This document shows, one piece after another, positions 21,550 to 44,152 of a stretch of 64,000 bases of DNA. Within the stretch, counting starts at the first letter, position 1. Each line of letters begins with the position of its first letter. The position numbers were made by a program, and so were the translations under genes. The stretch is from assembly GCA_951406725.2 (NCBI GenBank), contig OX597820.1, positions 53,134,001 through 53,198,000 of the forward strand. The letters are read 5' to 3'. The stretch comes from Octopus vulgaris. Lineage: Eukaryota. The notes under the pieces are model-generated. The model was not told where the DNA came from. It did no database searches and saw only the letters and a program-made list of their open reading frames with translations.

Positions 21550-22518
21550 GTATATAAATATGTATATGTGAGTGTGTGTGTATGCATGCGAACGTGAGAT
21601 TTCAAAGAGCCAGAGTAAAAGAGAGAGAGCTTTATTAGCCATTTGTTTGTCGTGTGTATGTTTATCTGTGTATGCGTGTATGTGTGTGTGGGGAAGCGTG
21701 TGTGTGTAGAGTTTTAATAGTTTGGTTAATGTTGAGCTTTTCTTATTTCCAGCTAAGAACTGGTTAGTATACAAAGCGAATATAACTCGTTTTATGCCAA
21801 GAGTATAGAAAAATTTAACTGATCTTTTGGTTCAACATGTACGCTTCATTTACGGTTAAAACGTTAGAGTAAGGAAGTGAACTAACACGCCATGGAGCAT
21901 TGGTTGCAATTCCTTAGTTAATGGCATAGGAAAAGAAAGGTTGCAAACAAGTGATTGAATTAATAGGTAAATATTCCATTGTATTTGGTCGACATATTGA
22001 ATAGATGTTATTGCTTGCAATTGATTGGTGTTTAGTATAGTGGTTGGTTTTTATATTGTAGAAGTGAATATGCGATGCTCCAGCACGAGCGCAGTCAAAT
22101 GACTGAAACAAGGAAAAGAATAAAAGAATACAATATAATAGAAGAGAGACTGTTTTATTTTTCATTCGTCCCTGTCGTTAGATTGTTGTCGTGCCGGGCC
22201 ATCGCCATGAAAGGTTTAGTTGAACAAATTGACATTAGCACATAGTTTTTAAATCTGATATTTAGTCTATCGGTTGCTTATGTCGAACTGCTAATGTTAC
22301 AGGGACGTAAAACGGTTGTCACGCAGGTATGTCGGTGTGTGGGACAGAGAAAGGCATGCACTCGTTGATATATATATATATATATATATAACTTATAATA
22401 TAAGGGCAAAAGAAAAATTCTAATGCCAGATATGTCGAAAATAGACAAAATTGTCAATAACCATTATAATTTATGCGTCTCGAAACAAGCCGATAGAAAT
22501 TTCTAAAAAATTCTGTTA

Positions 22519-22579
22519 TTACCGTATTGGTCCCAATTTCAGAGTTAATTCATAAGAATTTTCTCTTCCTCAGCGATAA
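22519..22579 (-). ncRNA. Canonical type I hammerhead ribozyme
   Basis: Minus strand TTATCG-CTGAGGA-AGAG aa AATTC ttat GAATT aa CTCT-GAA-ATTG ggac CAAT-A-CGGTAA. All core nucleotides and three helices are present, with an AUA cleavage triplet. Confidence 0.85.
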
Positions 22580-23692
22580 ATATGTAGTACATAAATGAAA
22601 TACTTACTCATACTCATGGAAAAAGCAAGCACTAAATCCTGAGCAGACCTAAATACCCCAAATATATCCAAAATAGAAAATCTTCAGCACATCTCGAGAC
22701 ACGTGTGATTCGAACTAGAAACTTTCACAGAGTGAGAGAGTCCGGAAATGTGAATTTACATCTAATGTAGGATAATATTTTTTCGAAAAAAAATTTATCA
22801 ATGGCCAGCATATTAAAGAATACCTTTTTTTAATATGGTATGAATTAGCGTATAGGAGCATACACACGTAACATAATTTTCAGGTAGAATCAACGAACAG
22901 AGTATAAGATAAGGCTGGATCATTAATTAACAGGAACAATCCTTCTGATGACTTCCATACAGTTTCCGCTCATCTATTCTCATTGAAAAGAGCTGAGTCG
23001 ACCCATGGCTACAGAAAAATGATACTTCTCCAAGATGCTGCGCATCTGCGATTTGGGACCGAAACCTCGTGATTGCAAAGATAGCTTCACAACAGGCCAT
23101 ATTATGTATTATGCTTATATACATATATATATACATATACATACATATATGTGTGTGGGGGGGGGGGGTGAATGTATGTGTGTATATGAGGGAGAGAGAG
23201 ATAAAGAAATGGAGGGAGAGAGGGAGAGAAACATATATATACACACACACATTAGGGTGTATATGTGATTATATAAATGTGTTTTGTATGTCATGAATAG
23301 CAGAGTTTCTTATATATGAGTGTGAGATAATATGTATACAACTGTATGTATATGTATACGCACACACATATATTTACACATGTACATCTAAGAGACAGTT
23401 TAGAAGTTTAAATGTTTCGATTACTTTAGATCACCGTATTTATCTTGTGAGCAGATTCTATTATTTCGTTGTTTTAAGTGTTTATTTTCCTTATTTGAAT
23501 AATATGTCGAATTATTTCTTCCACTGTTGCCTTACGTTTGCTTCCAAAGATTGATCGCTCTCTTTTAGTTCTGAACATACATTTCAGGCATTAAAATGTT
23601 TGTCTCTTATCATACATACATACATACATACATACATACATACATACATACAAACATACATACATACATACATACATACATACATACATACA

Positions 23693-25001: not shown

Positions 25002-27100
25002 ACTCAGGCGAAGATTGTATAGCAAACGCAGTAATCTCAGTTCTGCATGGATTGATTGCAAAAAGCATTCGAAGCATACCGCATTGATGAATCTTGAAAT
25101 CACTGGATATCTTTAAAATTTCTCCTGTGGTTTCAAACTTCCTGTAGCACATGTCAATTTGGAATACGAACCTCCAATTTATACCACTATAAAAAAAAGT
25201 ACTAACCACAAAAACTATTAACATCATCTGCGGCATTTTCCAAGGTGACTCATTTCCACCTTTAATTTTCTGCATGGCCCTAATATTCCTTACAAGAGAA
25301 CTTAACAGAACCGGGTATGGATATAAAACTGGCGACAAGAAAATAAATCATCTGTTTTATATGGATGACTTAAAACTCTATGGCAAAGACGATAAGCTTG
25401 AAGGACTACTATTTACTGTAAAAGCCTTCAGGGATGACATTAGGATGGAATCTGGTCTTGATAAATGTGCCAAAGCCACATTCCAGAAAGAGAAATTGAA
25501 GACCGCACATTCAGTGGTGTTGGATGTTGTCACAATTATAAAAGAACTCGAGCAGAGACAGACTTAGAAATAGCTTGGAATAAATGAGGGCTCTGGTATT
25601 CAACATACAAGTTTGAAAGAGATGATCTGGAAGGAGTGTTACAGGAGTGTTCGATCAGTCGTCAAATCCGAGTTAAATGCACTTAACAAGGTGTCAGCTA
25701 TAAATTCCTCAGCAGTTCCGGTTGTTATTTACAGTTTCAATGTGTTGAACTGGAACATGAGCGAAATAAAGACGATTGACAGGAAAATCCGGAAGCTGCT
25801 GACTTGCAATAAGATGCAACACTCAAAGGTAAACGCATATGGTCTTTACCTACACAGATCTCAAGGAGGTCGAGGCTTGATCCAATTTGAAATGTCATAC
25901 AAAATCCAACCACCACAATTGGACTGGCAAAATATCTTGAAACATCTAGCGACTTCATGCTCAAGCTCATTGAAAACCATGAAAGACGTAACAAGCTTCA
26001 TTCTGTTATGAAGGAGAACAAAAAGTTTTCAAGTGAGTTTATACATAATACCTTGTTTGAACAGCAGGAACTGTTGTTGCAAAGAAGGTGAAATCAATAG
26101 CAAAGCAAAATGTGCTTGCACAATTGGCTGATATGTGGGAACAAAAATCTCTGCATGGCAAATATGTGGCCCGTAGCAAAAATAGCTGATGTAGACCAGA
26201 AGCACACTCATCAGTGACTACGGAGCTCAGGGCTAAAGGCAGAGAGTGAAATCTTTATTTTGGCTGCCTAAGATTAGAGCTCATTGACCCGGAGCTATCA
26301 AGCCAATGTGATGAAAAATTGCGTAGACATAAAATGCCGATGCTGCAATGATGGGATTGAAACGGTCGACCAACTAATCTCTAGATATAAAGTTTTAGCA
26401 CATGTAGAGTGCAAATCAAGACATGACAGAGTTGGCCAATATCTAAATTGGATAATGTGTCGGCATTATAAAATCAAAATTGCTGACAAATGATACAAGC
26501 ACCACCATGAGACTGTAACGTTGTGACATCCCAATATGTACAGACCGGACCATCAAGACAAATAAACCAGATATTGTTGTTAAAGACAAAAACAATAAAG
26601 TCTGCTTATTGATTGATATGAGCATACCCTGTGACTATAATAGAATTTGATAGGCTCAGAAAATATGAAGATTTGCTAATCGAAATATAAAAGATGTAGC
26701 ATCTCAAGACGGTTACAATACCTATCAATGTAGGAGAATTTGGAATGATTAGAAAAGGAACTAAAAATTATTTAAGAATTATTCCTGGCTTACCATTCAT
26801 GCAGGAAGTTTAAAGATTGTCTTAACTGGTACGACACACGTATTGAGAGGAGCATTGTCGCTTTGAATTTTCTTTCCTTTCCCCCTTTTTATTTTATTTG
26901 TTTACTTTTCAATTTTTTTAATTTTTTCCTTTTTCTCACTGTCTTCCCTTTTTTTTCTCTGTCACATGATTCTGCAAATAAACAATCTGATGTGTTTGTT
27001 TTAATGGCCTACCAATATATACAGTATGTTTCTCTGCTCTAAGTGTCAGGAAGGCATACGGCAAGAAACAGAAACAGAATTGACAGAAGATGCTAACGAA
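25002..27100 (+). mobile_element. R4/Dong-clade (REL endonuclease) non-LTR retrotransposon, 5'-truncated and decayed
   Basis: AWID, GIFQGDSFPPLIFCMAL, HLFYMDDLKLYG, GLDKC, GGRGL, zinc knuckle KCRCC...ETVDQL, RHD, KPDIVV, LLIDM, with many stops and frameshifts. Ends at (AAT)n 27101-27178, the known Dong target type. Confidence 0.9.
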
Positions 27101-29814: not shown

Positions 29815-30555
29815 TTTCTACTCTAGGCACAAGGCCGAAGTTTTTGGGGGGAGGGGGGGCCAGTCGATTACAGCGACTCCAATACAGAACTGGTACTTAA
29901 TTTATCGTCTCCGAAAGGATGAAAGGCAAAGTCGACCTCGGCAGAATTTGAACTTAGAACATAAAGACAGACGAAATACCTATTTCTTTATTGCCCACAA
30001 GGGGCTAAACATAGAGGGTAAAAATACCTATTTCTTTACTACCCACAAGGAGCTAAACACAGAGAGGACAAATAAGGACAGACAAACGGATTAAGTCGAT
30101 TATATCGACCCCATTCCGTAACTGGTACTTAATTTATCGACCCCAAAAGGATGAAAGGCAAAGTCGACCTCGGCGGAATTTCAACTCAGAACGTAAAGAC
30201 TGACGAAATACCTTTTTCTTTACTACCCACAAGGGGCTACACACAGAGAGGACAAACAAGGACAGACAAACGGATTAAGCCGATTATATTGACCCCAGTG
30301 CGTAACTGGTACTTAATTTATCGACCCCAAAAGGATGAAAGGCAAAGTCGACCTCGGCGGAATTTCAACTCAGAACGTAAAGACTGACGAAATACCTTTT
30401 TCTTTACTACCCACAAGGGGTTACACACAGAGAGGACAAACAAGGACAGCCAAACGGATTAATTCGATTATATTGGCCCCAGTGCGTAACTGGTACTTAT
30501 TTAATCGGCCCCGAACGGATGAAAGGCAAAGTCGACCTCGACGTAATTTGAACTC
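29815..30555 (-). repeat. Tandem array of SINE family B segments, 184-bp period
   Basis: ATGAAAGGCAAAGTCGACCTCG recurs at about 29919, 30151, 30335 and 30519. Confidence 0.9.
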
Positions 30556-38201: not shown

Positions 38202-41200
38202 TTACTTAGATAAAACTTAGATATGTTTCGACCAGAGATTGGTCCAGGCCATGTCTAACTTAATAGCACCACCTGATAGGATTACTCGAATCCTGTTTAA
38301 GTCAAGTTTTGTTCAAGTAGTGAGTTCTTGTTGGGTGAGTTGTATCCAATTATGGGTGGCTTATCTGGTATTCTTTGAAGGAATCTATCCAGACTCTGTT
38401 TGAAGTTGATGGGATCCTTTTCCTCTTTGATCTCCCTCGGGACAATGTTAAATAGGGCAGGGCCTGTTGAGGAAAAGAAATTATGTTGCAGTGTACATGT
38501 ATGTTGTGATCTTGAATTTGGCAGGGGACGTATAGCCCGTGGTCCAAGTCTCGGATGAACCTTGAAGCTAATGTTTAGGTCGTTTGGGCAAAGTTGGCGG
38601 TATATTTTCCACATCGTACAAATGATGTACAGCTCACGGCGACGCTGGAGGGAGTAAAGTTTCAAGGCTTTAAGGCGATCCCAATAATCGAGAGCAGCCA
38701 TGCCTTCAATTTGTTTAGTGAGAGCCCTCTGGGGTGACTCAATTCTGGAGATGTTTTGTCTTGTGTGAGGAGACCACAGTGGGCAGCAGTATTCAAGGTG
38801 TGGCCGTACAAAGGATGAAAAAAGTGGTATGATGACACCTTGTTCTCTGGACCGGAAAGTTCTTAAGATCCAGGAACTCATCCTACGAGCTGTATCGACC
38901 TTCTTGTTGATGTGTGCACTCCAACTGAGATCGTCATCAACAATTACACCCAGGTCTCTGATATTGTTAGAGGCTGTGAGCGGTTCCCCTGAAGGAAGAG
39001 AGTATGGTTGTTTTAGTGAGGAATTTCTTCCAAAATGCATCAGCTCAAATTTTCCCTCATTCAGTTGCATTTTGTTTCTGTCTGCCCATTGACTCACAGC
39101 ATATAGGTCAGACTGGAGTTGAGTTCGGTCTGCTTCTTCATTGACGATTTGCTGGAGCTTAGTGTCATCAGCGGATATTTTTACTTTGCAGTGATGTACG
39201 ACACTGGAAAGGTCGTTTACATAAATTATGAAGAGTAGCGGACCCAAAACAGTTCCCTGGGGAACACCGCTGGTGACTTTTGCTGGGTTTGAGTGGACTC
39301 CATCAACTACAACATGTTGTGTTCTATTCGCTAGGAAATACTGAATCCAGTGTAGAACTTTTCCACGGATTCCAACATTTGCCAATTTTGAGAGTAGGAT
39401 GTTATGGTCTACCCTGTCGAACGCTTTACTGAAGTCAAGGTATATGACGTCAGAGTTCGAACCTGTTCCCAAGGCTTTGAGTACATCTTCAATGTGGTGT
39501 AAGAGCTGTGTTAGACAGTCCCTACCACAGCGAAAGCCATGCTGATTTGAATTTAGGAGTTTGTGGGTCTCCAGGAAGTCAGCTATCCTTGATCTTAACA
39601 CTCTTTGAAACACTTTAATGATGTGGGAGGTGAGTGAGATTGGGCGATAGTTGACTGTGAGGGATCTGTTTCCCTGTTTGAAAACCGGGATGACCGACTG
39701 GGATAGAAACTTTTTCGGTATATAACCTGCGTCTAACGAGTTTCTCCAGAGGTTGGTCAGAGGGACTGCAAGTTGATATCTACATTCCTTCAGGAGACTG
39801 GCGGGAAATCTATCAGGGCCTACAGCAGAGTAATGTTTGACCTCATTTATTGCTGCTACGATGTCGGTGGCAGTGAAGGTTATGTCTGCGATTTTGTGTT
39901 GGGAGTCAGCTTCGTTCGTTTCCCTCACATCAATATCAGTGGGAACACTGAAGACAGAGCAATATTGTTTCTGCAGTATTTCTGCCATTTCTTTAGCATC
40001 GTGTTGGGGAATGCCGTTTTTATCAATCAATGGCCCAATAGGTGAGACAGTGGTTCTATGCTTATTTGCATAAGAATAGAACACTTTTGGGTTCTGTTTG
40101 ATGTTTTTGATTACCCATTGTTCCTCCACAGCTCTTTGATTTTCAATGGAGGTTTTCATGTTAGTCTGCAGTTGAAGTTTTTCCAGCTCTAGTCTTTTCA
40201 TTGTTGTTGAATGTGGATGTTGCGTGTGGGAATATTTTAATTGGTTGATTTTTTTGTTGAGTCTTTTGATGCGCCTGATGAGTGTTTTTTTCTTTTTAGG
40301 GAGCCGGTTTCTGTTTGTGTTAGTAGATTTCTTGGGAGCGTGTTTCGAGCATGTGTCGGTGACAATGGTTTCAAAGTGCTGCCACGCGGTCTCAATATGA
40401 GGGGTATTGAGAGTAAAAGACCAGTCGATGGAAGACAGATCCTTTCTGATTGTTTCCCAGTCCGCTTTGTGGAAATTTATGTTGTCAAATGGGTGCCATG
40501 GAGTGGGGTTGGCTGGTTTGGTTTTTATACGTCGGGAATTAAGATTGCAGAGTACCATGTCGTGGTCTGAGAGGAGAGTTTTTTCGACTGAAATGCTGTG
40601 AACGTAGCTAGAGTGATTGGTCAGTACCAGATCCAAGATCGTTTTATTCTGTCTCGTTGGTTCAAGCACTAGCTGAGTCAGGAAATACTCATCCATCAGA
40701 TTAAAGAGCAGTTCTGCTGCTGCCCTATCTGATGTAGAGCACTTGCCTAACTTCGGAGTATTTGTGGGCCAGTTCACATGAGGGAGGTTAAAATCACCCA
40801 TCACTATTATGTTTCCGGAGTGGTACTTCCGAAGGAAGGACTTGACTTTGCTAAGGCACTCTTCAAAGTACTTTAGAGGTGCCTGGGGAGGCCTGTAAAG
40901 ACCAACAATGGTTATGTCCTTGGCTTTGTTGTATACTGATACCGATTCACAGTAGCCATTGGAAAATGTGTCCTTGGCATCAAGTGAAAAGGAGTCATGG
41001 ATAAAGATGGCTGTCCCTCCCTTATTTCGGTCTGTGCGATCCGCACGAACAATGGTGAAATCTTTTATTTTCACCTCTGCGTCCATATGGGTGTTGTTCA
41101 GGTGAGTCTCGGTAAGGATAAAGAAAGGGAAGCAATGTGCCATTTCGGCAAGCCAACTCTCTATATATGGGATCTTCCATTTTTGGGCAATAATTGATGG

Positions 41201-41326
41201 GTTGATGCCACGTACATTTAACAGGAATGTCGAGGTAAGGGAAGTTGGTAATGGGTGAGTGGTCCTTGTGATTTGCATAGATGGTTGGTGATGGCTCGCT
41301 GGATCTCCTGGCTTAGGTCGGCCTTC
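38198..41326 (-). mobile_element. CR1/L2-group LINE, 5'-truncated just upstream of ORF2
   Basis: Uninterrupted ORF2, 3' UTR with stem-loops, TCTAAGTT-type tail repeats, flanked by TA runs. Confidence 0.92.
38297..41278 (-). CDS. LINE ORF2: apurinic-like endonuclease plus reverse transcriptase (993 aa)
   Basis: EN motifs LLNVRG, LTETHL, GGTAI, YRPP, GDFNLP, LDLVL, SDHD. RT motifs YRPISLTS, QHGFR, YLDFSKAFD, GVPQGTVLGP, SADD, RDLGV. Confidence 0.96.
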   Translation of the reverse strand: MQITRTTHPLPTSLTSTFLLNVRGINPSIIAQKWKIPYIESWLAEMAHCFPFFILTETHLNNTHMDAEVKIKDFTIVRADRTDRNKGGTAIFIHDSFSLDAKDTFSNGYCESVSVYNKAKDITIVGLYRPPQAPLKYFEECLSKVKSFLRKYHSGNIIVMGDFNLPHVNWPTNTPKLGKCSTSDRAAAELLFNLMDEYFLTQLVLEPTRQNKTILDLVLTNHSSYVHSISVEKTLLSDHDMVLCNLNSRRIKTKPANPTPWHPFDNINFHKADWETIRKDLSSIDWSFTLNTPHIETAWQHFETIVTDTCSKHAPKKSTNTNRNRLPKKKKTLIRRIKRLNKKINQLKYSHTQHPHSTTMKRLELEKLQLQTNMKTSIENQRAVEEQWVIKNIKQNPKVFYSYANKHRTTVSPIGPLIDKNGIPQHDAKEMAEILQKQYCSVFSVPTDIDVRETNEADSQHKIADITFTATDIVAAINEVKHYSAVGPDRFPASLLKECRYQLAVPLTNLWRNSLDAGYIPKKFLSQSVIPVFKQGNRSLTVNYRPISLTSHIIKVFQRVLRSRIADFLETHKLLNSNQHGFRCGRDCLTQLLHHIEDVLKALGTGSNSDVIYLDFSKAFDRVDHNILLSKLANVGIRGKVLHWIQYFLANRTQHVVVDGVHSNPAKVTSGVPQGTVLGPLLFIIYVNDLSSVVHHCKVKISADDTKLQQIVNEEADRTQLQSDLYAVSQWADRNKMQLNEGKFELMHFGRNSSLKQPYSLPSGEPLTASNNIRDLGVIVDDDLSWSAHINKKVDTARRMSSWILRTFRSREQGVIIPLFSSFVRPHLEYCCPLWSPHTRQNISRIESPQRALTKQIEGMAALDYWDRLKALKLYSLQRRRELYIICTMWKIYRQLCPNDLNISFKVHPRLGPRAIRPLPNSRSQHTCTLQHNFFSSTGPALFNIVPREIKEEKDPINFKQSLDRFLQRIPDKPPIIGYNSPNKNSLLEQNLT

Positions 41327-41332
41327 ATATAT

Positions 41333-42379
41333 AACTTAGAATAACTTAAAATAACTTAGAAAGGTTTTGGCCAGTATTGGCCCAGGCCATGTCTAACTTA
41401 ATAGCACCACCTGGCGAAGTCTTTCAATTCAGGATTTGGGCACCGAGGCCCATTCGTGCAGAGAGTTATTGTTTGCGGAGACATATCCGGGTGTGGGTGG
41501 TTTGTCCGGGACTGTTTGAAGGAATTTGTCCAAAGACTTTTTGAATTTTGTGTGGTCAGTTTCTGTTTTGACGTGTCCTGGTGTAATGTTGAAGAAAGCG
41601 GGTCCAATTGAGGTGAAATAATTGTGCCGTATTGTCGTTATGTGATGCGATTTAGATTTTTGTTGTGGACGGATGGCACGTGGTCCAAGCCTTGGATGTA
41701 TTTTGAAAGTGATGCCAACATCATTCGGACAGTGCTGATGGAATATTTTCCACATCATACAGATAATGTAGCGTTCACGGCGTCGTTGGAGTGAATACAG
41801 TTTCAGCTTTTCTAGTCTACCCCAGTAGTCAAGGTCTGACATGCCATCTATCTTTTTTGTCATTGACCTTTGGGGAGCTTCAATTCTTATAATATTTTGT
41901 TTTGTGTAGGGAGACCACAGTGGACAGCAGTATTCAAGGTGGGGTCGGGCAAAAGTGGAGAAGAGAAGGATAATAGTGTGGGAATCTCTCGACTGGAAGG
42001 TTCTGAGAATCCAGGAACACATTCTGCGGGCCATGTCAACTTTGCTGCTTATATGTGTAGCCCAGCTTATGTTGTTGTCCACTGTTACTCCCAAGTCTCT
42101 GATGTTGTTGGGCGCCATGAGAATTTCTCCAGAAGGAAGGGAGTATGGGATTTTCAGAGCATCCTCCCTTCTAAAGTGGATCAGTTCGAATTTGTCTTCG
42201 TTTAGCAACATGTTCTTTTCCGCCCATTGGACAACAGCCAGTAGGTCTGACTGAAGGCTTATTCGGTCATCCACGTCATTGATGACCTTCTGGAGCTTTG
42301 AATCATCAGCGAAGGTTCTGATGTTACTGTGTTTGATGGTGTCAGTAATATCATTTATGTAGATGATGAAGAGAAGTGG
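41333..42379 (-). mobile_element. Second, 5'-truncated LINE of a related subfamily (RT C-terminus and 3' UTR)
   Basis: PLLFIIYIND...TFADDSKL...RDLGV...YCCPLWSP...LYSLQRRRERY, open to the stop at 41429. Shares a 3' UTR block with the adjacent element. Confidence 0.93.
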
Positions 42380-44152
42380 TGCTGAAAAAAGAGCAATATA
42401 TATATATCATTAATAAAGCTGCAAAATGATCACGTTCTGATTCGTCGGACAGCTGTGATGAATACTCTGTATTCGAGAACTATTTTTTTTTTGCCTTGTT
42501 TTGCATCTATGTGTTACTTGTGCGTGTATGTGTATATATACATATTATGATGTACTTCAGTGGTAAATATCCCACACAAGTATATTCTATTGCAAGCTGA
42601 CGAGAAGGACGGTGTCTCAAATCACTTTTGAACGTTACCTATGACAGAGATAGAGTTATCCTTCGCACAAATATATCGACAAAACAAAATTAAGTACGAA
42701 ATGTATGGACGTTGATATTCATGAATAGATTAAGAATCTTAACCAAATTAACGTCAGGATATCCAAATCGATTATTATATTACGTTCTTCAAGATGGACA
42801 TCTTAAAACTTTTATTGTTTTATATTTTCCGATATTTACTTTATATTTGCATTATATGCATATAAAAACTGTATCTAAGCACATTAAGATTCGAGTGAAT
42901 CCAACGTTAGAGTACACTAAAGTATTTTACATAAAATTTCACTCGTGTAGGTTTTGAAATTAATCGCTTTTTTTGTGTGTTGCAGACGTTGATTTTATTC
43001 TTCGATTTATCAATAATTCGATTATATCATTCTATTCTTCAGAATTTCCTCACACCACCACTAATGCACAAACACAAGACAAACTCCTTACACACTCTAG
43101 GCCCTCAAACCTCTTCCTCAATATCATTATATATGTGTGTGTGTGTAAATATATATACATATATATACATATGTATATAACAGTATGCATCATTTCATGT
43201 ATGTATGTGTATGTGTGTATGCATATATGTGTGTATGCATGTATGCGTGTGTGTGTATGTACGTGTGTGTGTATGTACGTATGTGTGTATGTACGTATGT
43301 GCGTATGTACGCATTTATGTATAGATACAGCATTCACAAAACCACAGCCAGAGATATACATTTCAACACAGCCAGTCAGAAACACATATGCATGTGACTG
43401 TGCATATATACGTGCATATATAGAAGTATATGTATATATACATATACAGATATGAATAGATGATCTTAAGTATATATTAATGTGTATATGTCAACGTGTG
43501 TATATACGTACACATAAGCACACGTTCATATACGCATACACATACATATATTCACAAACACAGGCACATATATGTATCCATCTACCTATATGTGTGTGTG
43601 TATATATATAACCGATTCCAGCATGGACAACGGACGCTAAATGATGATGAGGCTGATGATTATGAGGAAGGTGGTGATGATGAGTATGATGATGAGGATG
43701 ATGTATCATTAATATTGACTCTCTTTTAGTTTATATATCTCACAGTAATTTATTACTTTTTTCTACAATCCCAATAGATTAAACTCAACATTTAATGGGA
43801 AAAATCATTTTGAATGTTGAATTCTCGAGTGTCCTTAAACTATAATTAAATTTTTGGAGCTGCATTATTTTGGATTGCCCCCACACATACACATTCACAC
43901 ACACTCACAAACAGACACACAAATACACACATACACACACACAAGCGCATACACGCACGGACTCAAACTTGCACATATACGCTTGCATAAATGTACATAC
44001 CACACACATGTATGTATGCTGTATGTATATTAAAATTGCGTATGTTTAATAGAATTATTTTCTTTCTATATATGTATATACACACATATACATCTGGATA
44101 TAAATACGCCTCTATGTATATTAATATAATTAACATTTATGTATTAATTATA

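What the first reader, a model, noticed from the sequence alone, without database searches (positions are those of the whole stretch)
22519..22579. Apparently intact, monomer-competent hammerhead ribozyme
All core positions are present (CUGAGGA, GAA, A15.1-U16.1, AUA triplet). Helix I has 6 bp (UUAUCG/CGGUAA, one G-U), helix II is AGAG/CUCU extended by AAUUC/GAAUU, and helix III is a real 4-5 bp stem (AUUG(G)/(C)CAAU). Unlike the other motifs here it does not need dimerisation. The predicted cut is on the minus strand between 22525 and 22524. It sits in a segment that starts at a (TA)n tract (about 22390).
Basis: partly seen in the sequence, partly recalled or inferred. Interest (0 to 1): 0.75.

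Follow-up and report, generated by a model that had tools for sequence, protein, structure and literature searches.

The report
Hammerhead in Penelope-mobilised retrozyme copy
This is a real hammerhead-ribozyme motif, but it belongs to one lone, slightly decayed copy of a protein-free jumping repeat with many hundreds of copies; the repeat's insertion pattern points to Penelope-like retrotransposon enzymes as the likely copier, and its ribozyme is predicted to cut better in pairs than alone.

Summary
The motif is there as described: a type I hammerhead on the minus strand, predicted cut 22525/22524, 0 hits in 300 shuffled windows. It lies in one 5'-truncated copy (22827 to about 22389) of a non-coding repeat with a unit of about 465 nt; its ribozyme 22-mer has 418 exact genome matches. 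The (TA)n tract is the element's 3' insertion end, not its start. Related families (50-80% identical) keep the core with compensatory stem changes, so the ribozyme was selected during spread. Insertions show Penelope-like hallmarks: partial tandems, inverted 5' arms, TA targets and two fixed 3' ends about 85 nt apart. Of 40 inverted pairs, 35 use one of each end and none uses the same end twice. 'Intact, monomer-competent' is not supported. Two CpG-type changes break this copy's distal helix I, the monomer fold holds about 1% of the predicted ensemble, and a double hammerhead is the predicted dimer minimum. Cleavage, expression and circles are untested, and no autonomous partner was found. Verdict: a new member of the animal non-LTR retrozymes. 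The scan noted similar families on other DNA of this genome before.

The parts
22389..22827 (-). One 5'-truncated copy (about 439 nt of a 463-466-nt unit) of the hammerhead-bearing non-coding repeat, here called family A; covers unit positions 154-463 and then 1-136, counted from the cut
   Evidence: BLAST against genomic copies and against a natural unit; it is the only copy in the window
22519..22579 (-). Type I hammerhead motif (helix I, core, long helix II with internal loop, 4-bp helix III, AUA triplet)
22567..22573 (-). Core C3-A9 (CUGAGGA); N7 at 22569 is the only core position that varies freely in the family
   Evidence: among 63 copies read, intact CUGA-N-GA cores have N7 = G 24, A 20, C 7, U 1; one search shows the same position varying in contigs
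22541..22566 (-). Helix IIa (A10.1-U11.1 here; G-U or G-C in most family A copies), A-rich internal loop, helix IIb hairpin
   Evidence: pair 10.3: G-C 28, A-U 15, G-U 8 of 53 rows
22526..22537 (-). Helix III, an inverted repeat with a 2-nt centre, able to pair as a hairpin or between two molecules
22524..22525 (-). Predicted cleavage site, between A17 (22525) and C1.1 (22524)
   Evidence: sequence plus established hammerhead numbering; cleavage untested
22582..22584 (-). 5' strand of distal helix I (Ib); G-to-A at 22583 breaks a G-C pair
   Evidence: A-U at this pair in family B
22514..22516 (-). 3' strand of distal helix I (Ib); G-to-A at 22514 breaks a C-G pair
22757..22827 (-). Truncated part of the 'tail' segment lying between the family's two fixed 3' ends; holds the motif most conserved across related families (likely the reverse-transcriptase recognition region)
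   Evidence: function inferred from PMC11167929
22368..22390 (.). (TA)n microsatellite target joined to the short 3' end (about +136 from the cut)

Best explanation
The motif is the hammerhead of one lone, 5'-truncated copy of a high-copy non-coding repeat of the non-LTR retrozyme kind, which was likely pasted into (TA)n tracts by a Penelope-like retrotransposon enzyme, and this copy is probably a weakened leftover rather than a working host ribozyme. Shown: the repeat, its unit of about 465 nt, its lack of coding capacity, the ribozyme's conservation with compensatory changes, and the insertion architecture. Inferred life cycle: (1) loci with two or more units are transcribed by read-through; (2) two hammerheads, likely helped by pairing of their self-complementary helix III, cut out a unit-length RNA that would be ligated into a circle; (3) a Penelope-like RT/GIY-YIG protein nicks both strands of a (TA)n tract and starts reverse transcription at two internal sites, about +136 and +222 nt from the cut, one per DNA end, reading through the cut site; (4) truncation leaves single arms such as this one, which has one ribozyme, cannot release a unit and has since lost two CpG-containing pairs of distal helix I.
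For: Copy number: 2992 first-look candidates and 40 scored places at 92-100%; 418 exact matches to the ribozyme 22-mer and 844 to a 3' 24-mer, 0 for the reversed controls. Natural tandems give a unit of 463-466 nt, GC 32%, longest stop-free stretch 61 aa. Selection on the ribozyme: N7 is the only freely varying core position. Helix II covaries: 97.7% of cells paired, 19 cells changed on both sides, 0 of 500 shuffles as high. Sister family B (571 matches with up to 1 mismatch; 75-80% identical) has compensatory pairs in helices I, Ib, II and III, and the more distant C/D group (about 50% identical to A) keeps the same layout with an AUC triplet. Penelope hallmarks in 66 loci picked by a 3' motif: 72 of 85 TA-ended arms stop in two 3'-end classes; 42 of 66 loci hold both orientations; of 40 simple inverted pairs 35 are long+short, 5 long+other, 0 long+long or short+short. 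Two internal start sites giving a 'tail' are described as shared by and unique to Penelope-like elements (PMC11167929; PMC8557442 section 6). Templates were not cut-to-cut linear monomers: 42 of 85 arms cross the cut, 16 exceed one unit, 4 cross two cuts, 8 stop within 15 nt of a cut, with no pile-up against neighbouring bins. An intact autonomous Penelope-like family with two TA-joined ends exists in the genome. Dimer preference.
Against: No autonomous element sharing the unit or its tail was found among 49 GIY-YIG loci or among the family loci, so the partner is unidentified. No RNA-level proof: the runs were contigs of guessed type. The one family A unit folded as a circle is not more structured than shuffles (z -0.54; family B z -5.6). 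The dimer result is modest: 66 of 256 possible loops also give a double hammerhead, the native loop ranks 23 of 256 (family B 18 of 64), and only 1 of 3 family C copies cofolded as a double hammerhead. Nearest-neighbour folding ignores tertiary contacts and Mg2+. In vitro, a Penelope-like enzyme did not need ribozyme cleavage and used unprocessed RNA (PMC11167929), so long uncut tandem RNA could be the template instead of a circle. Helix II covariation within family A reflects few events inherited by many copies.
Confidence: 0.8

Rival explanations
1. One reading: this copy is a stand-alone ribozyme that cleaves efficiently as a monomer.
For: Intact core; 6/4/4-bp helices; helix III longer than in dimer-only animal hammerheads (PMC4209133); coral and mussel retrozyme monomers cleave co-transcriptionally at about 0.8 and 0.1 per min (PMC7229834); A10.1-U11.1 is fixed in family B.
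Against: Monomer fold lies 2.2-2.5 kcal/mol above a competing fold, P about 0.003-0.01; helix I and III pair probabilities 0.06 and 0.02 in the whole 451-nt stretch; distal helix I broken; only 1 of 9 predicted Xenopus retrozymes cleaved in vitro (10.64898/2026.07.22.740005).
Confidence: 0.25
2. The unit is the orphan terminal repeat (pLTR) of an autonomous Penelope-like element whose coding part is lost or unsampled, and it spreads from long uncut tandem RNA with no circle.
For: Same insertion architecture as autonomous elements; retrozymes derive from pLTRs in Xenopus; cleavage is dispensable in vitro.
Against: No copy continued into Penelope-like coding sequence in the same orientation (the few protein hits looked at were separated by TA tracts or lay downstream); tandems join unit to unit; the ribozyme core is kept while flanks diverge to about 50%, which argues that cleavage matters in vivo.
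Confidence: 0.3
3. This particular copy has been co-opted to cut a host transcript.
For: The insertion junction also appears in a DNA run under another organism label (record 16), so it is not private to one assembly.
Against: It carries ordinary CpG-type decay in a conserved helix; no host exon was detected among 61 nearby reading frames (weak test).
Confidence: 0.03
4. A chance look-alike.
For: No Rfam match; folding z-score only -1.5.
Against: 0 of 300 shuffles; covariation and conservation over several families.
Confidence: 0.01

Closest known systems
Animal non-LTR retrozymes (Cervera and de la Pena 2020, PMC7229834; Li, Clavereau and Pollet 2026, 10.64898/2026.07.22.740005)
   Same: Non-coding, AT-rich unit of a few hundred nt with one type I hammerhead; monomers, partial tandems and dimers dispersed over the genome; co-occurs with autonomous Penelope-like elements that carry minimal hammerheads.
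   Different: Unit (463-466 nt) slightly above the 150-450 bp given in the first paper; long helix II with an internal loop and a 4-bp helix III; mostly 0.3-2 units per insertion rather than long arrays; clear Penelope 'tail' and inverted arms, which the parts of these papers I read do not describe; RNA and circles not shown here.
EN+ Penelope-like elements (tail and inverted-arm architecture, PMC8557442; Poseidon of Anolis, PMC11167929)
   Same: Partial tandems, 5' truncation, inverted 5' arm, two fixed 3' ends, AT-rich target, type I hammerhead upstream of the start sites.
   Different: No ORF; tail about 85 nt instead of 30-40; full three-helix hammerhead instead of the minimal form; no sequence link to an autonomous family found.
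Dimer-assisted type I hammerheads of salamander satellite repeats (HHR_Amex1 and HHR_Amex2, PMC7229834)
   Same: Type I topology, helix III able to pair between two copies, tandem context.
   Different: Helix III has 4 bp here against 1-2 bp plus loop there; dimer use here is only predicted.

Membership tests
Type I hammerhead ribozyme | Core CUGANGA, GAA, A15.1-U16.1, NUH triplet | tested here: met
   core intact in 48 of 63 family copies read
Type I hammerhead ribozyme | Three helices, open end in helix I, supported by covariation | tested here: met
Type I hammerhead ribozyme | Match to an Rfam hammerhead model | tested here: not met
   none among the 150 listed of 220 rows; none (E up to 10)
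Type I hammerhead ribozyme | Helix I to helix II tertiary contact | tested here: inconclusive
   An internal loop and distal helix I are kept in families A, B and C but broken in this copy; the contact itself was not modelled
Type I hammerhead ribozyme | Mg2+-dependent self-cleavage | not testable with these tools
   needs in vitro transcription
Monomer-competent hammerhead | Active fold favoured in one molecule | tested here: not met
   prediction only: P about 0.003-0.01; double hammerhead is the cofold minimum
Non-LTR retrozyme | Short non-coding low-GC unit with one type I hammerhead per unit, in tandem copies | tested here: met
Non-LTR retrozyme | Two consecutive units with ribozymes at the locus ('active' in Li et al. 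2026) | tested here: not met
   window copy has one ribozyme; some other family loci have two (L014, L021, L026)
Non-LTR retrozyme | Highly self-paired circular unit | tested here: inconclusive
   family A unit z -0.54, family B unit z -5.57, one unit each, 40 shuffles
Non-LTR retrozyme | Expressed as linear and circular monomer RNA | not testable with these tools
   only contigs of guessed type were offered
Non-LTR retrozyme | No LTR, primer-binding site or polypurine tract | not tested
   ends are variable 5' and TA-joined 3', which does not fit an LTR element, but no PBS/PPT search was run
Element mobilised by Penelope-like machinery | Two fixed 3' ends (tail), 5' truncation, partial tandems, inverted 5' arm, AT-rich target | tested here: met
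Element mobilised by Penelope-like machinery | Sequence shared with the terminal repeat of an autonomous element | tested here: inconclusive
   none in 49 GIY-YIG loci out of 6136 candidates; the sample is small
Autonomous Penelope-like element | RT plus GIY-YIG reading frame | tested here: not met

The most novel reading that the evidence does not exclude
The ribozyme of this superfamily is a double-hammerhead counter: only transcripts with two units are cut into a unit that circularises, and one Penelope-like enzyme dimer then copies that single RNA from two fixed start sites, one per nicked DNA strand. This would explain why inverted insertions carry one long and one short end and never two alike, and would make these repeats a genomic record of the unresolved second-strand step of Penelope-like retrotransposition.
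Probability: 0.25. Interest if true: 0.65.

Novelty: new member of a known kind. Interest (0 to 1): 0.38.

Why it matters
The single motif is one decayed copy among many hundreds and matters little by itself. The family matters more. Which enzyme moves animal retrozymes was proposed from co-occurrence and from similarity to terminal repeats; here the insertion scars carry the Penelope-specific two-start-site signature. The strict long-plus-short pairing of inverted arms (35 of 40, none alike) constrains how both DNA strands are primed. Because the unit is non-coding, the conserved ribozyme shows that cleavage counts in vivo although it was dispensable in vitro. The small unit would be a convenient template for testing both points.

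Tried and rejected
Rfam scans gave only microsatellite-driven miRNA hits and no hammerhead. Search for the autonomous partner: GIY-YIG search, 29 longer regions, BLAST, tblastn and a tail profile; none found. The family A copy beside an intact Penelope-like element (L072/L081) sits tail-to-tail on the same TA tract, so I read it as an independent insertion. RNA evidence: no RNA holder listed; contigs of four runs guessed to be RNA cover the family but none of the flank 22831-23090, and cannot show strand, ends or locus. A tRNA-type B-box-like 9-mer at 22715-22707 is in 70 of 82 family A matches (overlapping loci counted) but absent from the B and D units, and the unit has five T5+ runs, so a Pol III promoter was rejected. 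A pile-up of 5' ends at the cut, expected from linear cut-to-cut templates, was not seen. A joint A/B/C alignment misplaced family C's helix III, so no pair count was made on it. No host exon was found among 61 reading frames between 11 and 38 kb (two sub-threshold hits judged chance). The look-up by sequence among earlier findings returned one unrelated note.

Full report
Observation. A descriptor asking for 6/4/4 pairs found it once in the real window and never in 300 resampled windows. Rfam does not detect it.

What it sits in. A search of the window's own 2.8-Gb genome with 22400-22760 gave 2992 candidates; the 40 scored places were 92-100% identical. Exact patterns give firmer lower bounds: 418 matches for the ribozyme 22-mer and 844 for a 3' 24-mer. 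Natural tandems give a unit of 463-466 nt, GC 32%, no reading frame above 61 aa. The window copy runs from 22827 to about 22389, is the only one in the window and holds one ribozyme. The (TA)n tract is its 3' insertion end. The junction at 22827 also occurs in a DNA run under another organism label (record 16). The genome looks like an octopus genome to me (size, contig number, repeat content); this is recalled resemblance and no call established it.

Selection on the ribozyme. Of 66 ribozyme-spanning copies, 63 could be read by the script and 48 have an intact core; N7 varies freely (G 24, A 20, C 7, U 1) while other core changes are rare. Helix II switches between GGAG/CUCU and GGGG/CCCC subfamilies (53 distinct rows, 97.7% paired, 19 doubly changed cells, 0 of 500 shuffles as high; copies are related, so this counts few events). 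A loose end led to sister family B (571 matches; 25 loci read), 75-80% identical, with G-C to A-U changes in helix I and distal helix I, U-A to C-G in helix III and A10.1-U11.1 fixed. A distant group C/D, about 50% identical, keeps the layout with an AUC triplet. A motif in the tail shared by all of them has 5012 exact matches. With no coding constraint, this conservation implies that cleavage mattered while the masters spread (inference).

State of this copy. Against the family majority it has G-to-A at 22583 and 22514, both in CpG context, which break the two G-C pairs of distal helix I, and G10.1-to-A at 22566. The last change matches family B and is probably harmless. Loss of distal helix I likely weakens the helix I to helix II contact that natural hammerheads need in vivo (PMC4209133 states the need for the contact; the effect here is inferred).

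Monomer or dimer. The ribozyme fold of one molecule lies 2.2-2.5 kcal/mol above a fold in which the core pairs with the helix III strand (P about 0.003-0.01), and 23 of the 25 natural copies scored (11 of 36 skipped for indels) have P of 0.003 or less. The helix III hairpin alone is not predicted to form. Two copies cofold, unconstrained, into the double hammerhead (-32.7 kcal/mol against -23.8 for two monomers). In families A, B and C the helix III arms stay complementary up to a centre of only 1-2 nt, which a hairpin cannot close. Against this: 66 of 256 possible loops give the same result, the native loop ranks 23 of 256, family B's ranks 18 of 64, one of two B copies and one of three C copies had the double hammerhead as cofold minimum, and such models ignore Mg2+ and tertiary contacts. 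So 'needs no dimer' is unsupported, and 'works better as a dimer' is likely but unproven.

How it spreads. I took 66 loci picked only by the 3' motif (26 of the first 30 returned, 4 being second arms of the same insertion, plus 40 further listed places in order, skipping partner arms and places already held). Of 85 TA-ended arms, 72 fall in two 3'-end classes, about +136 and about +222 nt from the cut once the TA letters added by BLAST are removed; 5' ends vary; 42 loci hold both orientations. Of 40 simple inverted pairs, 35 are long plus short, 5 long plus unclassified, and none has two alike; 22 loci are single arms and 4 are complex. Two internal start sites leaving a tail, with both DNA strands cut and extended, are described for a Penelope-like enzyme (PMC11167929), and tails, partial tandems and inverted arms are the group's structural marks (PMC8557442). 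Arms read through the cut (42 of 85), exceed one unit (16) or cross two cuts (4), with no pile-up at the cut (8 within 15 nt), so the template was a circle or an uncut tandem. The genome holds a young autonomous Penelope-like family (765-aa RT plus GIY-YIG frame) that also has two TA-joined ends, but it shares no detectable sequence with the unit. The partner remains unknown.

Expression. Only contigs of runs guessed to be RNA were offered. They cover the family but cannot show strand, ends, circles or this locus.

Literature seen. 10.64898/2026.07.22.740005: parts 1-3 of 5, abstract to discussion. PMC7229834: passages and parts 2-4 of 6. PMC4209133: parts 1-2 of 4. PMC11167929: parts 1-2 of 4. 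PMC8557442: passages and section 6. PMC13282606: passages; 'ribozyme', 'hammerhead' and 'retrozyme' do not occur in its main text. PMC2837043: passages. Searches for a cephalopod hammerhead or retrozyme listed no paper that describes one by title or abstract start; I opened no supplements, and the repeat library of PMC13282606 or the supplements of PMC7229834 may hold this unit. Earlier notes of this scan describe families of 360, 485 and 490 nt in this genome with the same reading; I saw them after my own analysis and did not check that they are the same families.

Verdict. Observation confirmed; interpretation partly supported. It is a new member of the animal non-LTR retrozymes with Penelope-type insertion scars. 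The copy itself is probably a weakened leftover. Interest 0.38.

Noticed in passing
window 13877 (+) and 53610 (-): Two minimal hammerhead-like motifs (core, short helix II, two-base CG helix III centre) in another repeat; the form described for Penelope-like terminal repeats.
   Followed up: partly
window 38297-42406 (-): A LINE-type element with an open 1012-aa frame (endonuclease plus reverse transcriptase) preceded by a 325-aa frame without Pfam match.
   Followed up: partly
window 25193-26011 (+): Fragment with a weak reverse-transcriptase match, probably an old retroelement.
   Followed up: no
window 30022-30555: 2.9 copies of a 184-bp tandem unit at 94% identity, SINE-like by recall.
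   Followed up: no
L081-L089, L108, L109: Young autonomous Penelope-like family with many intact frames, two TA-joined 3' ends about 36 nt apart, and a minimal hammerhead with the U3-A8 core variant and a palindromic helix III. A CxxxxCxxC stretch before the nuclease suggests the Neptune type as described in PMC8557442.
   Followed up: partly
L167, L190, L197, L203, L205, L214, L218, L228: In several inverted insertions both arms stop at almost the same unit position, forming near-perfect palindromes; may reflect fold-back or joining of two cDNA ends.
   Followed up: no
L110-L134, L237-L264, L270, L285: Sister families B (unit about 498 nt) and C/D (about 480 nt) with related hammerheads; some C/D copies have an A-A mismatch at the base of helix II.
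   Followed up: partly
window 22715-22707 (-): A tRNA B-box-like 9-mer, kept in family A only.
   Followed up: yes
G000:C9:44016878 and C9:44018839: Two identical 161-base matches 1961 bases apart, a local duplication or an assembly repeat.
   Followed up: no
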